Source: a virus
Taxonomy: Duplodnaviria; Heunggongvirae; Uroviricota; Caudoviricetes
Direction: 5' to 3' (one strand)
Virus record (IMG/VR): IMGVR_UViG_2534682109_000010
DNA length: 17,632 bases
Positions within the stretch are counted from its first letter, which is position 1; every line of letters begins with the position of its first letter. Below are positions 6,001-9,000 of the stretch, piece by piece. The position numbers are program-made.

Positions 6001-9000
6001 TGAATTTACCTTCAAACGATTCATTCGTGAGAGCGGTAAAGCGTACCTGGAGCCGCTCAACCCACGATTCGACATGATTGAGTGTAACGAAAACTGCCAG
6101 TTTGTCGGAAAGGTCATCAAATCGCAGTGGAATGATGAGACTTTTGATTGAGCTCACAGAGTGATTTGACATCCTTCACGCCTGAAGAATGTGGAGGATG
6201 TCAAAAGCACGTTGGCATCATCATGCCACGTAAAGAGGATTAGTTATGCTTCAAAAGCTAGACGTCGCAGACAGCGTGCGTCGCGAGCTGTCTCCCCGTA
6301 CCGCGCGTAAACACAAAGCAGAGTTCGGCCAGTTCATGACGCCTTCTGGCGTGGCCCGTTTTATGGCCTCCTTGTTTCCACCGAGCACAATGAAAACTTG
6401 CCGTCTACTGGACGCAGGCGCTGGTTTAGGCGCACTGTCTTGCGCCTTCCTCGACCGTTGGCTGGTTGGCGAGTTTGGCTTTGAGTCTGTCGAGGCAACA
6501 GCCTACGAAATCGACAAAAAGCTGTGTGGTCACCTTGCGAAGCACTTAACCGGGTACAGGAGAGTGACGCCCCGCATCATCGAAGGGGATTATATTGAGC
6601 TGGCAACCGCCGAAGGTCTACAGGATCGAGGTTATACCCATGCAATACTTAATCCGCCTTACAAGAAGATCAATAGCCAGTCAGCCCACCGGCAGGCTCT
6701 TCGCACTGTCGGTATCGAGACGGTAAATCTGTATTCCGCCTTTGTTGCACTGGCTGTAGGTGAGGTTGCACCTGGCGGGCAGATAGTGGCCATAATCCCA
6801 CGTAGTTTCTGCAACGGACCGTATTACCGTCCGTTCCGTAATTTCATACTTGAGCGGGCAGCAATCCGCCATATTCATTTGTTCGAATCACGTAGCAAAG
6901 CTTTCAGGGATGACGATGTGTTGCAGGAAAATATTATCATCCGCCTGGAGCGTGGAGGCCGTCAGGAGGCTGTTACAGTCACAACTTCGACCGATGATAG
7001 CTTTTTTGACCTGGTCACCTACGAACACCCATTTGACCAGATTGTGTACCCGGACGATTCGGAGCGGTTTATTCATGTGCCGACCACGCTCGAGAAAAGC
7101 ACCATTGAGTTATCATCTGCCGTACAATGTTCGCTGGCTGATATTGGCGTGAAGGTATCGACCGGACCGATAGTTGATTTCCGACTGAAAGCTCATTTGC
7201 GCAGCATGCCAGAAGAAGGAACTGTTCCCCTGATCTACCCGAGCCATTTGAGTATGAGTAGCACTGTCTGGCCTGTGGAAGGTTTGAAGAAACCCAACGC
7301 AATCATGCGCAACGACGAGACAGAAAAGTGGCTTTACCCGAACGGTTTTTATTGTGTGGTGCGTCGTTTCTCGTCGAAGGAGGAAAAGCGCCGAGTGGTA
7401 GCAAGCGTCGTTGATCCTGCTACCTTCAGTGAGTATTCAGTGTTGGGATTTGAAAATCACATGAACGTGTTTCATGAGAACAAACATGGGTTACCCGAGG
7501 CGCTGGCCCGTGGCTTGGCCGTGTTCCTGAACACTACCGCAGTGGATAAGTACTTCCGTCGCTTCAACGGGCATACACAGGTCAATGCAACCGACCTCAA
7601 GATGATTAAGTACCCAAGCCGTGACACTCTGATAGAGCTTGGCAAGTGGGCTATGCAACAAGAAACTCTCACGCAAGAACATATTGACGCTAAGCTAGGA
7701 GCTCTGACTGCATGAACAACCAAAATGATTATATTGAGGCCGCTCAGCAAATTATAGCATCCTTAGGCCTGCCCAGAGCGCAGCAGAATGAGCGTTCTGC
7801 TTTGTGTTTGCTGGCACTCCTGAACCTCACACCGGGAAAAGCATGGGCCGACGCGGAAAATCCGCTTGTGGGCATTACACCAATCATGAATTGGGTTCGG
7901 GAGCACTACGGCAAGGTCTACGCACCCAATACTCGTGAGACATTCCGCCGCCAGTCTATGCATCAGTTCTGCGCTGCTGGAGTAGCCCTCTACAATCCGG
8001 ACAAGCCCGATCGCCCAGTGAACAGCCCGAAGGCTGTTTATCAGATCGAACCTGCTGCTCTGTCCATGCTACGCACTTTCGGCAGCCCGGCATGGCACGA
8101 TAGCCTTGCAACCTATTTAGCCGAGCGTGAAACGCTGGTTACCCGCTATGCTAAGGAGCGCGAACAGAATCGTATCCCTGTTGAAATTGCTGCGGGCCAG
8201 CAAATAACCCTCAGTCCCGGCGAGCACAGCGAACTTATCCGTGCCATAATAGAGGACTTCGCCCCACGTTTTGCTCCGGGTAGCGTGCTGGTCTATGCTG
8301 GCGACACTGGCGAAAAGTGGGGCTACTTCGACGCTCCACTGCTGGCCGGGCTAGGTGTTGATGTGGATTCACACGGTAAAATGCCAGATGTGGTGCTACA
8401 TTTTACTGCGAAAAACTGGCTGCTACTGGTTGAGTCTGTCACCAGTCATGGACCGGTTGATGGGAAGCGGCATGCTGAGCTTGCCAGGCTGTTTGCCGGA
8501 TCAACAGCCGGACTTGTCTATGTGACCGCTTTTCCAAATCGCTCCATCATGGGGCGATATCTTGGTGAAATCGCATGGGAAACAGAGGTATGGGTGGCTG
8601 ATGCACCTTCTCATCTTATTCACTTCAACGGAGTGCGATTTCTTGGCCCCTACTCTACTGAATGAGAACAGGACCAGATAAATAGCCCGGCCCATGCGCC
8701 GGGTTTTTCTTTGCATATCCCCTCCTGTTATCTGTCCCCTTAAAAAATAAATCACTTTAAAAATCAGTTAAGTAATATTTTTTCACCCCCAATAACCACT
8801 AACGGTATTTACATAAAAATCACCGCAAGTTATATTTCTTTCAAGCCAGAAACATCGCGCCCTTACACAGGGCTACATAAATCAGTCGTACGGCGCGACT
8901 TAACCCGCCGCAAAATGCTCTTTAACAACCTGGAGCTTTACAGCGTCAATGACCTGTTTAGACCCCTACACGTAAACGTGCTGTATCATCGGGTGCGATC

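What the first reader, a model, noticed from the sequence alone, without database searches (positions are those of the whole stretch)
6246..8665. Type II restriction-modification cassette in the prophage immunity region, in the slot lambda uses for rexAB
A gamma-class N6-adenine methyltransferase (motifs FGQFMTPSG, LLDAGAGLG, NPPY) is start/stop-overlapped (ATGA at 7712-7715) with a 317-aa ORF whose size, gene order and PD-(D/E)xK-like C-terminal motif fit a BsuBI/PstI-type endonuclease. The pair lies 95 bp after the cI stop on the same strand and is followed by a strong terminator (8686-8710). I find no convincing promoter in the cI-M gap, so the pair is probably read through from the repressor promoter and expressed in the lysogen. 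That would make it a lysogenic-conversion defence against superinfecting phage and possibly a post-segregational killing module that stabilises the prophage. The cassette also looks more GC-rich by eye than the flanking AT-rich pL region, suggesting separate acquisition. If the specificity is CTGCAG as in PstI/BsuBI, the window has one such site (2343-2348).
Basis: partly seen in the sequence, partly recalled or inferred. Interest (0 to 1): 0.85.

Follow-up and report, generated by a model that had tools for sequence, protein, structure and literature searches.

The report
Known EcoGIII restriction-modification cassette in Stx2a prophage
The two genes are a real PstI-type restriction-modification pair sitting just after the repressor gene of a Shiga-toxin phage, but this exact system (EcoGIII of the E. 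coli O104:H4 outbreak phage) was already described and tested experimentally in 2012.

Summary
ORFs 6246-7715 (489 aa) and 7712-8665 (317 aa) overlap by ATGA. They lie 94 bp after a cI-type repressor gene on the same strand and end at an intrinsic terminator (stem 8684-8705 plus T run).

The interpretation also holds. The second protein matches both Pfam BsuBI/PstI endonuclease domains (E 5e-61 and 1e-54) and the solved SdaI structure (E 1e-77). The first is a gamma-class N6-adenine methyltransferase.

It is not new. The window is an Oslovirus Stx2a-converting prophage. The cassette is 100% identical in DNA to that of E. coli O104:H4 genomes, and the endonuclease is 316/317 identical to the strain C227-11 protein. 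This is EcoGIII (Fang et al. 2012). Citing papers report that it methylates and cuts CTGCAG, that about 99% of sites are methylated in lysogens, that it restricts lambda-like phage and conjugating plasmids, and that its deletion changes about 1,950 host transcripts.

Still inferred: co-transcription with cI, and any post-segregational killing.

New here:
- A conserved strong hairpin without a U tract lies between cI and M.
- Relatives carry HicAB or a remnant of the endonuclease gene in the same slot.
- The phage does not avoid CTGCAG.

The parts
5139..5378 (-). cro gene (context; left edge of the immunity region)
   Evidence: Pfam Cro, 4.8e-34. Annotated cro in P13771 and P13374. The real start is probably ATG 5366 or 5341.
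5367..5437 (.). OR region: PR-like promoter (-35 TTGACA 5395-5390, -10 5372-5367, minus strand) and operator-like ATCACC-N4-GTTAT at 5418-5432
   Evidence: Promoter scan. Exact match of the operator-like pattern at 5418-5432(-), and at 8819-8833(+) at OL. The pattern was derived from these two sites, so this is a lead and not proof.
5438..6151 (+). cI-type repressor (HTH plus S24 self-cleaving domain), first gene of the presumed operon
   Evidence: Pfam HTH_3 8e-10 and Peptidase_S24 9.5e-29. 100% identical to cI of P13374, PA8 and Ss-VASD.
6165..6205 (+). Strong hairpin without a U tract between cI and M (16-bp stem in the RNA fold; the exact repeat arms are 15 nt; 9-11 nt loop)
   Evidence: Inverted repeat I7. 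RNA fold -23.2 kcal/mol, z -5.4. The stem is conserved and the loop differs in relatives that have lost the cassette. Homology breakpoints of those relatives fall at or just before it.
6233..6239 (+). Shine-Dalgarno sequence AAGAGGA of the methyltransferase gene
   Evidence: Read directly from the sequence; 6 nt before ATG 6246.
6246..7715 (+). M.EcoGIII: gamma-class N6-adenine DNA methyltransferase, target CTGC(m6A)G
   Evidence: Motifs X, I and IV in gamma order. Pfam Eco57I domain 3.3e-9. PADLOC MTase_II 5e-248 over 1-489. 100% DNA identity to O104:H4 genomes. Specificity comes from the literature.
7698..7715 (+). M/R junction: AGGAG (7698-7702) inside the end of M, and the ATGA stop/start overlap (7712-7715)
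   Evidence: Read directly from the sequence. The layout fits translational coupling with M made first; coupling itself is inferred.
7712..8665 (+). R.EcoGIII: BsuBI/PstI-family type II restriction endonuclease (N-terminal winged-helix DNA-binding domain plus C-terminal PD...E nuclease domain)
   Evidence: PF17728 1.2e-54 (aa 7-143) and PF06616 4.6e-61 (aa 155-307). SdaI 2ixs 1.2e-77. 316/317 identical to C22711_2126 of strain C227-11. D226 and E241 are conserved in the family.
8684..8710 (+). Intrinsic terminator that closes the cassette; also the right edge of the block shared with heteroimmune relatives
   Evidence: Terminator scan. Fold -14.5 kcal/mol followed by UUUUUCUUU. Lyz12581Vzw diverges right after it.
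8808..8836 (+). pL candidate (TTTACA-17-TATATT) with operator-like ATCACCGCAAGTTAT (8819-8833) in its spacer
   Evidence: The region is conserved in homoimmune PhiR12_3 and replaced in heteroimmune Lyz12581Vzw.
2343..2348 (.). The only CTGCAG (EcoGIII) site in the window, inside the primase-like gene
   Evidence: 1 found against about 5 expected. First-order simulation gives P about 0.045.

Best explanation
Window 6246-8665 is the EcoGIII type II restriction-modification system of an Oslovirus Stx2a-converting prophage, the phage type of the 2011 E. coli O104:H4 outbreak.

How it works:
- M.EcoGIII is a gamma-class N6-adenine methyltransferase. It methylates the adenine of CTGCAG on host and prophage DNA.
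- R.EcoGIII is a BsuBI/PstI/SdaI-family enzyme with a winged-helix recognition domain and a PD...E nuclease domain. It cuts unmethylated CTGCAG in incoming DNA.
- The lysogen therefore resists superinfecting lambda-like phage and conjugating plasmids. Genome-wide m6A also shifts host gene expression.

These points are shown for this cassette in published work. They are supported here by sequence identity and profile hits.

Inferred from the anatomy:
- The pair is the distal part of a cI-M-R transcription unit. It would be read from the repressor promoter, pass through a strong hairpin that has no U tract, and stop at the terminator at 8684-8710.
- M precedes R, and the ATGA overlap with an internal AGGAG gives translational coupling. 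This favours methylation before restriction, with no controller protein.

The slot between cI and pL/OL is an accessory-gene slot. It is analogous to the rexAB position in lambda, with no homology to RexAB.
For: Identity:
- 100% DNA identity over 2,420 bp to O104:H4 genomes and other STEC; 139 of 5,426 complete E. coli genomes carry the cassette.
- 99.5-100% identity to phages P13771, P13374, TL-2011c, phi191, Ss-VASD and PA8 over 5100-9300.
- R is 316/317 identical to the C227-11 protein.
- The rare-codon positions tabulated for EcoGIII (R: AUA15, AGA22; M: CUA5; PMC6456624) match the window sequence.

Family: Pfam, PADLOC and PDB hits. The catalytic D226 and E241 are conserved.

Function, from the literature:
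- M.EcoGIII cloned from C227-11 methylates the A of CTGCAG, and the R gene product is biochemically active. In the lysogen RM13514, 98.8% of CTGCAG sites are methylated, against 0% in a strain without the cassette (PMC3893438).
- It protects against lambda-like phage, and about 1,950 genes change on deletion (PMC6602927; PMC4659465).
- On a plasmid it restricts conjugal entry of pESBL (PMC4288162).

Operon inference:
- The genes share a strand, and the 94-nt gap has no promoter-like match.
- The only + strand promoter-like sites between 4900 and 9500 are at 6910 (weak, inside M), 8808 (pL candidate) and 9143.
- The first strong intrinsic terminator after cI (G+C-rich stem plus a clean T run) is at 8684; three weaker + strand matches inside the coding regions are discounted.
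- Relatives that carry HicAB instead have a hairpin plus T run directly after cI. Relatives with the cassette have a hairpin without a T run.

Slot: alternative cargo occupies it in relatives, and the shared block runs from the cI C-terminal half to the terminator.
Against: - I found no transcript data for the cI-M junction, and Fang et al. 2012 was not readable here.
- The hairpin at 6165-6205 (-23 kcal/mol) could pause, process or partly stop transcripts, so M and R levels need not follow cI.
- A non-consensus promoter or one using another sigma factor would escape the simple scan.
- The window's R differs from the deposited C227-11 protein at one residue (W203 against V).
- CTGCAG is not avoided in the phage genome (12 sites against 15-23 expected). 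The phage therefore depends wholly on its own methylase, and site counts give no independent sign of R activity.
Confidence: 0.9

Rival explanations
1. The cassette is the same EcoGIII system but is transcribed on its own. Its promoter would lie in the 3' end of cI or in the gap, perhaps using the TTGACA inside the hairpin arm. The hairpin would end or insulate the cI transcript.
For: A perfect TTGACA sits at 6166-6171 in the left hairpin arm. The hairpin is very stable and marks the boundary of the module. Many type II systems carry their own promoters (general knowledge).
Against: No acceptable -10 lies 16-18 nt after that TTGACA (ATGTGG, AATGTG or TGTGGA, read). The scan finds no promoter-like site in 5438-6245 on the + strand. 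The hairpin has no U tract, whereas HicAB-carrying relatives do have a terminator after cI.
Confidence: 0.25
2. The main selected role is not defence. Instead it would be prophage addiction (post-segregational killing on loss of the prophage) and/or epigenetic reprogramming of the host by M.
For: Deletion of the system changes about 1,950 transcripts and affects growth. The same slot holds a HicAB toxin-antitoxin pair in relatives, which is an addiction-type module. Several other type II systems show post-segregational killing (established knowledge).
Against: Restriction of lambda-like phage and of plasmid entry has been demonstrated. Relatives carrying only a remnant of R and no M (PhiR12_3, G6/7) show that the system can be lost without killing the lineage. 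No killing test for EcoGIII was found. The roles do not exclude each other.
Confidence: 0.2
3. The endonuclease copy in this window is inactive and the methyltransferase acts as an orphan.
For: The canonical Lys of PD-(D/E)xK is absent: T244 stands where SdaI has K251. The protein differs by one residue from the C227-11 entry.
Against: T244 is the family majority (52/87), and D226 and E241 are conserved. The ORF is full length against the family models. The DNA is identical to O104:H4 genomes, whose system is reported active.
Confidence: 0.03

Closest known systems
EcoGIII (M.EcoGIII/R.EcoGIII) of the Stx2a prophage of E. coli O104:H4 C227-11 (Fang et al. 2012, Nat Biotechnol 30:1232; read here only through citing papers)
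   Same: It is the same system. DNA identity to O104:H4 genomes is 100% and R is 316/317 identical to the C227-11 protein. It has the same place next to cI in the same phage type. Rare-codon positions match.
   Different: Only the host strain and a mosaic prophage backbone differ. The window is 98-99.6% identical to the nearest records and lacks about 930 bp in the anti-repressor region.
PstI (Providencia stuartii) and BsuBI (Bacillus subtilis), the type II systems that name the family; both recognise CTGCAG
   Same: The endonuclease has the same two-domain family architecture (PF17728 plus PF06616). The reported target is CTGCAG with m6A modification. Several records annotate the genes as M.PstI/BsuBI-like.
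   Different: Here M precedes R on one strand with a 4-nt overlap, and the pair sits inside a phage immunity region. From memory, not checked here, the PstI genes are divergently transcribed and chromosomal. I did not align directly to the PstI or BsuBI sequences.
SdaI (PDB 2ixs), the rare-cutting relative whose structure is solved
   Same: Homologous end to end (aa 8-315 against 14-322, E 1.2e-77). The MPD...E core and the N-terminal DNA-binding domain are shared.
   Different: From my own knowledge, not checked here, SdaI recognises the 8-bp site CCTGCAGG. SdaI has Lys where this protein and most of the family have Thr.
rexAB of phage lambda
   Same: The position and logic match: accessory genes directly downstream of cI on the same strand, before OL/pL. 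They would be expressed in the lysogen and act against superinfecting phage.
   Different: There is no homology; no Rex family appears among the Pfam, NCBIfam or PADLOC hits. The mechanism is DNA cleavage and methylation, not Rex-type abortive infection. Co-transcription with cI is established for rexAB and only inferred here.
Fused methyltransferase-endonuclease proteins of about 840 aa in the same family
   Same: They are among the closest representatives: 46-62% identity over the whole R, which aligns to their C-terminal third. One 840-position PADLOC model (PDLC03359) matches both M (positions 12-510) and R (positions 531-839).
   Different: In the window the two halves are separate ORFs joined only by the ATGA overlap.

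Membership tests
Type II (IIP) restriction-modification system | Separate, adjacent methyltransferase and endonuclease genes | tested here: met
   ORFs 6246..7715 and 7712..8665 lie on the same strand with a 4-nt overlap. PADLOC MTase_II 5e-248 and REase_II 1.6e-168.
Type II (IIP) restriction-modification system | Palindromic site that is cut within the site and protected by methylation of the same site | not testable with these tools
   Reported for this cassette: CTGC(m6A)G is methylated and cleaved (PMC6602927; PMC3893438). Not measurable here.
BsuBI/PstI restriction endonuclease family (Pfam PF06616 plus PF17728) | Both family domains score above the Pfam gathering cut-offs, in N-to-C order | tested here: met
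   PF17728 184.4 bits (cut-off 27) at aa 7-143. PF06616 205.2 bits (cut-off 27) at aa 155-307.
BsuBI/PstI restriction endonuclease family (Pfam PF06616 plus PF17728) | Conserved catalytic acidic residues of the PD...E core | tested here: met
   P225-D226 and E241 align with the MPD and E of SdaI. They are conserved in 84/87 and 80/87 representatives. T244 is the family majority where SdaI has Lys.
Gamma-class N6-adenine DNA methyltransferase | Motif order X (FxxxxTP), I (SAM-binding glycine-rich loop), IV (NPPY), followed by a C-terminal target-recognition region | tested here: met
   FGQFMTP at aa 27-33, DAGAGLG at aa 56-62 and NPPY at aa 146-149, with about 340 aa following. Pfam Eco57I methylase domain 37.5 bits (cut-off 25.3).
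EcoGIII itself | Near-identity to the C227-11 genes and the same location in an Stx2a prophage next to cI | tested here: met
C-protein-controlled restriction-modification systems | A small HTH controller gene and C-box upstream of R | tested here: not met
   M and R fill 6246-8665. The only intergenic space is the 94-nt gap, and no further intergenic ORF of 50 aa or more exists on the + strand.
Lambda rexAB-type immunity-region accessory operon | Located between cI and OL/pL on the cI strand | tested here: met
   The order is cro, OR, cI, M, R, terminator, pL candidate carrying an OR-like operator. The flanks are immunity-specific in a heteroimmune relative.
Lambda rexAB-type immunity-region accessory operon | Co-transcribed with cI from the maintenance promoter in the lysogen | not testable with these tools
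   Support is indirect only: no promoter-like site in the gap, a hairpin without a U tract, and the first strong intrinsic terminator at 8684. M is active in lysogens.
Lambda rexAB-type immunity-region accessory operon | Homology to RexA/RexB | tested here: not met
   No Rex family appears among the Pfam, NCBIfam or PADLOC hits. The relation is one of position only.
Post-segregational killing (addiction) module | Loss of the genes kills or arrests the cell through residual endonuclease | not testable with these tools
   I found no published test for EcoGIII. Natural relatives with only a remnant of R exist.

The most novel reading that the evidence does not exclude
The conserved hairpin without a U tract at 6165-6205 could be a regulatory RNA element. 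It might act as an RNase III or other processing site, as a pause site, or as a partial block. Such an element would set the ratio of M and R to cI, or delay the endonuclease while lysogeny is being established. Expression of the cassette would then be tied to the repressor operon in a controlled way. That would be a controller-free solution for safely installing a restriction system from a phage immunity region. The evidence does not exclude this. The stem is kept while the loop varies, and it marks the point where cargo is exchanged.
Probability: 0.15. Interest if true: 0.35.

Novelty: already known. Interest (0 to 1): 0.1.

Why it matters
This prophage-borne restriction system marks the whole host genome with m6A, blocks incoming phage and plasmids, and alters host gene expression in a major outbreak pathogen. 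All of that was established in 2012 and has been cited widely since. It adds small points of anatomy: the hairpin at the cI boundary, the exchangeable cargo slot (EcoGIII, its remnant, or HicAB) and the absence of CTGCAG avoidance. It opens no new question of weight.

Tried and rejected
- **Primary paper.** Fang et al. 2012 could not be read by PMC id or by DOI. Its results are cited second-hand from PMC6602927, PMC3893438, PMC4288162 and PMC4659465.
- **Operators.** A blind 15-mer comparison of the OR and OL regions found nothing useful. The operator-like ATCACC-N4-GTTAT was found by eye and then scanned. The overall count is not enriched (6 against 4.2 expected), but the two exact matches are at OR and pL. 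I treat this as a lead.
- **CTGCAG avoidance.** The window has 1 site against about 4.8 expected (P about 0.045). The whole P13374 genome has 12 against 15-23 expected, and CTGCAG ranks about 38th lowest of 64 six-base palindromes by observed/expected. I rejected avoidance as a signal.
- **GC content as a sign of separate acquisition.** The difference is too small.
- **Internal terminator-like hairpin in R (7782-7801).** It is not better than shuffles (z -1.6).
- **NCBIfam.** It gave no specific model for R and only distant hits for M.
- **A 2023 paper on a prophage rRNA methyltransferase in phages PA2 and PA8 (PMC10810198).** I checked it as a possible reinterpretation of M. It concerns a different gene, an MT-A70 family protein with a DPPW motif near int, outside this window.
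- **Transcriptome data.** Two literature searches for data across the cI-M junction found nothing.
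Full report
**1. The observation**

The window carries two + strand ORFs, 6246..7715 (489 aa) and 7712..8665 (317 aa). 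They overlap in ATGA at 7712-7715, and an AGGAG lies 9 nt before the second start.

Upstream on the same strand is ORF 5438..6151. It has an HTH_3 domain and a Peptidase_S24 domain, so it is a cI/LexA-type repressor. It faces a divergent gene that matches Pfam Cro (4.8e-34).

The gap between cI and the first ORF is 94 nt. It contains no sigma-70-like match. A G+C-rich stem at 8684-8705 followed by a T run closes the pair. CTGCAG occurs once, at 2343.

- The GC contrast is slight: 52.4% in the cassette against 48.6% for the window.
- The nuclease motif is PD...E-S-V-T and has no canonical Lys.

**2. What the proteins are**

- **The 317-aa protein.** It matches both Pfam domains of the BsuBI/PstI endonuclease family far above their cut-offs: PF17728 at 1.2e-54 and PF06616 at 4.6e-61. 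It matches a full-length PADLOC type II endonuclease model at 1.6e-168. It also matches the solved structure of SdaI end to end at 1.2e-77.
- **Catalytic residues.** I aligned 87 full-length representatives from a library of clusters at 50% identity. P225-D226 and E241 are nearly invariant. T244 stands where SdaI has Lys, and Thr is the majority residue in the family. The missing Lys is therefore normal for the family and not a defect.
- **The 489-aa protein.** It matches a full-length PADLOC type II methyltransferase model at 5e-248 and the Pfam Eco57I methylase domain. Its motifs X, I and IV come before a long C-terminal region, which is the gamma-class layout.
- **No controller gene.** There is no room for a controller protein gene.

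**3. Where it comes from**

- Region 5100-9300 is 99.5-100% identical to Stx2a-converting phages of the genus Oslovirus: P13771, P13374, TL-2011c, phi191, Ss-VASD and PA8.
- The cassette is 100% identical to several E. coli O104:H4 genomes. It occurs in 139 of 5,426 complete E. coli genomes, always on the chromosome.
- The endonuclease is 316/317 identical to protein C22711_2126 of O104:H4 strain C227-11.
- The rare codons tabulated for EcoGIII in PMC6456624 (R: AUA at 15, AGA at 22; M: CUA at 5) are at exactly those codons in the window.

**4. What is already known**

This is the EcoGIII system described by Fang et al. (2012). I could not open that paper, so I rely on papers that cite it.

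- PMC3893438 states that M.EcoGIII cloned from C227-11 methylates the adenine of CTGCAG and that the R gene product is biochemically active. In the O145 lysogen RM13514, 2,868 of 2,902 CTGCAG sites are methylated. In a strain without the cassette, none are.
- PMC4288162 shows that a plasmid carrying EcoGIII restricts conjugal entry of pESBL unless the donor also carries the system.

**5. Anatomy and likely regulation (inferred)**

The gene order is cro, OR, cI, hairpin, M, R, terminator, pL candidate.

- **pL candidate.** It lies at 8808-8836 (TTTACA-17-TATATT). Its spacer holds ATCACCGCAAGTTAT. The half-sites ATCACC/GTTAT recur exactly at 5418-5432, just before cI.
- **Heteroimmune relative.** Lyz12581Vzw has a cI with a different N-terminal domain (69% identity overall, nearly identical from residue 105 on). 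It shares the block from the cI C-terminal half through the hairpin, M, R and the terminator at about 95.7% identity, and diverges immediately after the terminator.

The cassette is thus embedded between immunity-specific segments, which is the topology of rexAB in lambda.

Four things support read-through from the repressor promoter:
- M and R are on the same strand as cI.
- No promoter-like site lies in cI or in the gap.
- No strong intrinsic terminator lies before 8684; the scan does list three weaker + strand matches inside M and R (6854, 7782, 8621), which I discount.
- The post-cI hairpin (6165-6205; -23.2 kcal/mol; z -5.4) has no U tract. HicAB-carrying relatives have a different hairpin with a T run right after cI.

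This remains an inference. I found no transcript data.

The M-first order with the ATGA overlap fits translational coupling, which would favour protection before cleavage. Post-segregational killing is plausible from other type II systems but is untested.

**6. The slot is exchangeable**

- Eight or so complete genomes carry this cI, or its C-terminal half, without the cassette (147 genomes with cI against 139 with the cassette).
- Phage PhiR12_3 and strain G6/7 have the same cI (99%) and the same hairpin stem. They keep only the last roughly 300 nt of R.
- Strains FHI_NMBU_10 and 48 carry a 56-aa ORF and an oppositely oriented HicAB toxin-antitoxin pair in the slot.
- Breakpoints fall at, or just before, the hairpin.

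This is better evidence for modular acquisition than GC content.

**7. Site statistics**

The P13374 genome has 12 CTGCAG sites, against 15-23 expected depending on the model. CTGCAG ranks mid-table among six-base palindromes. The phage does not avoid its own enzyme's site and must rely on M. All 12 sites lie between 20.9 and 48.2 kb.

**8. Verdict**

The feature is already known and experimentally characterised, so interest is low. The residual open points are co-transcription with cI, the role of the hairpin, and addiction.

Noticed in passing
window 9179-9254 (+) and 9279-9366 (+): Rfam matches above gathering score to the isrK Hfq-binding sRNA (61.7 bits) and the P1/P7-type C4 antisense RNA (78.9 bits). 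The isrK match has a promoter-like site at 9143-9172 and ends at the terminator at 9234-9249. Both RNAs lie just downstream of the pL candidate and just before a Rha-like gene, which resembles the c4-ant immunity module of P1.
   Followed up: partly
window 9283-10068 (+): This ORF is annotated 'regulatory protein' in related phages. Its first roughly 46 codons overlap the C4 RNA match and hit only the Ash family. The Rha domain starts at aa 67. An ATG at 9422 with AAGGAGG just upstream looks like the real start.
   Followed up: no
window about 9786-10001, against L001 11687-11902 and 12617-12832: Relative to phage P13771 the window lacks about 930 bp (antB2 and most of an anti-repressor gene). 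The loss looks like recombination between two copies of a repeat of about 216 bp.
   Followed up: partly
window 6165-6205: A 16-bp hairpin without a U tract lies right after cI (-23.2 kcal/mol, z -5.4). The stem is conserved and the loop varies among relatives, including those that lost the cassette. It coincides with the point where cargo is exchanged. Its function is unknown.
   Followed up: partly
L006 5336-6210 and L007 5034-5908 (the slot after cI in E. coli FHI_NMBU_10 and strain 48): Related prophages carry a 56-aa ORF plus a HicA/HicB toxin-antitoxin pair on the opposite strand in place of the cassette. In them an intrinsic-terminator-like hairpin follows cI directly.
   Followed up: partly
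L003 5015-5317 (phage PhiR12_3) and L008 5444-5746 (E. coli G6/7): These relatives have the same cI but no M, and keep only the last roughly 300 nt of the endonuclease gene, annotated as a short 'BsuBI' ORF. This is a deletion scar of the cassette.
   Followed up: yes
proteins P0121, P0124, P0125, P0128 and others (relatives of window 7712-8665): Many of the closest representatives at 46-62% identity are proteins of about 840-880 aa with the endonuclease as their C-terminal third. One 840-position PADLOC model matches both M and R of the window. Fused single-chain versions of this pair therefore exist.
   Followed up: no
L004 and L005 (phage P13374, 60,894 bp): All 12 CTGCAG sites fall between positions 20,920 and 48,236 (replication, late and structural genes). 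The int-to-helicase early region and the last 12.6 kb have none. On the circular genome that is a site-free arc of about 33.6 kb. A rough post hoc calculation of my own, not a tool result, gives P about 0.002.
   Followed up: no
window 5438-6151 against L002 1686-2405: The cI of the Lyz12581Vzw phage type has a divergent N-terminal DNA-binding half but a nearly identical C-terminal half. DNA similarity starts at nt 303 of cI. This implies a recombination joint inside cI at the domain linker.
   Followed up: partly
window 1-175: The first roughly 175 nt of the window do not align with any of the closest phage or E. coli records, which match from 175/178 onward.
   Followed up: no
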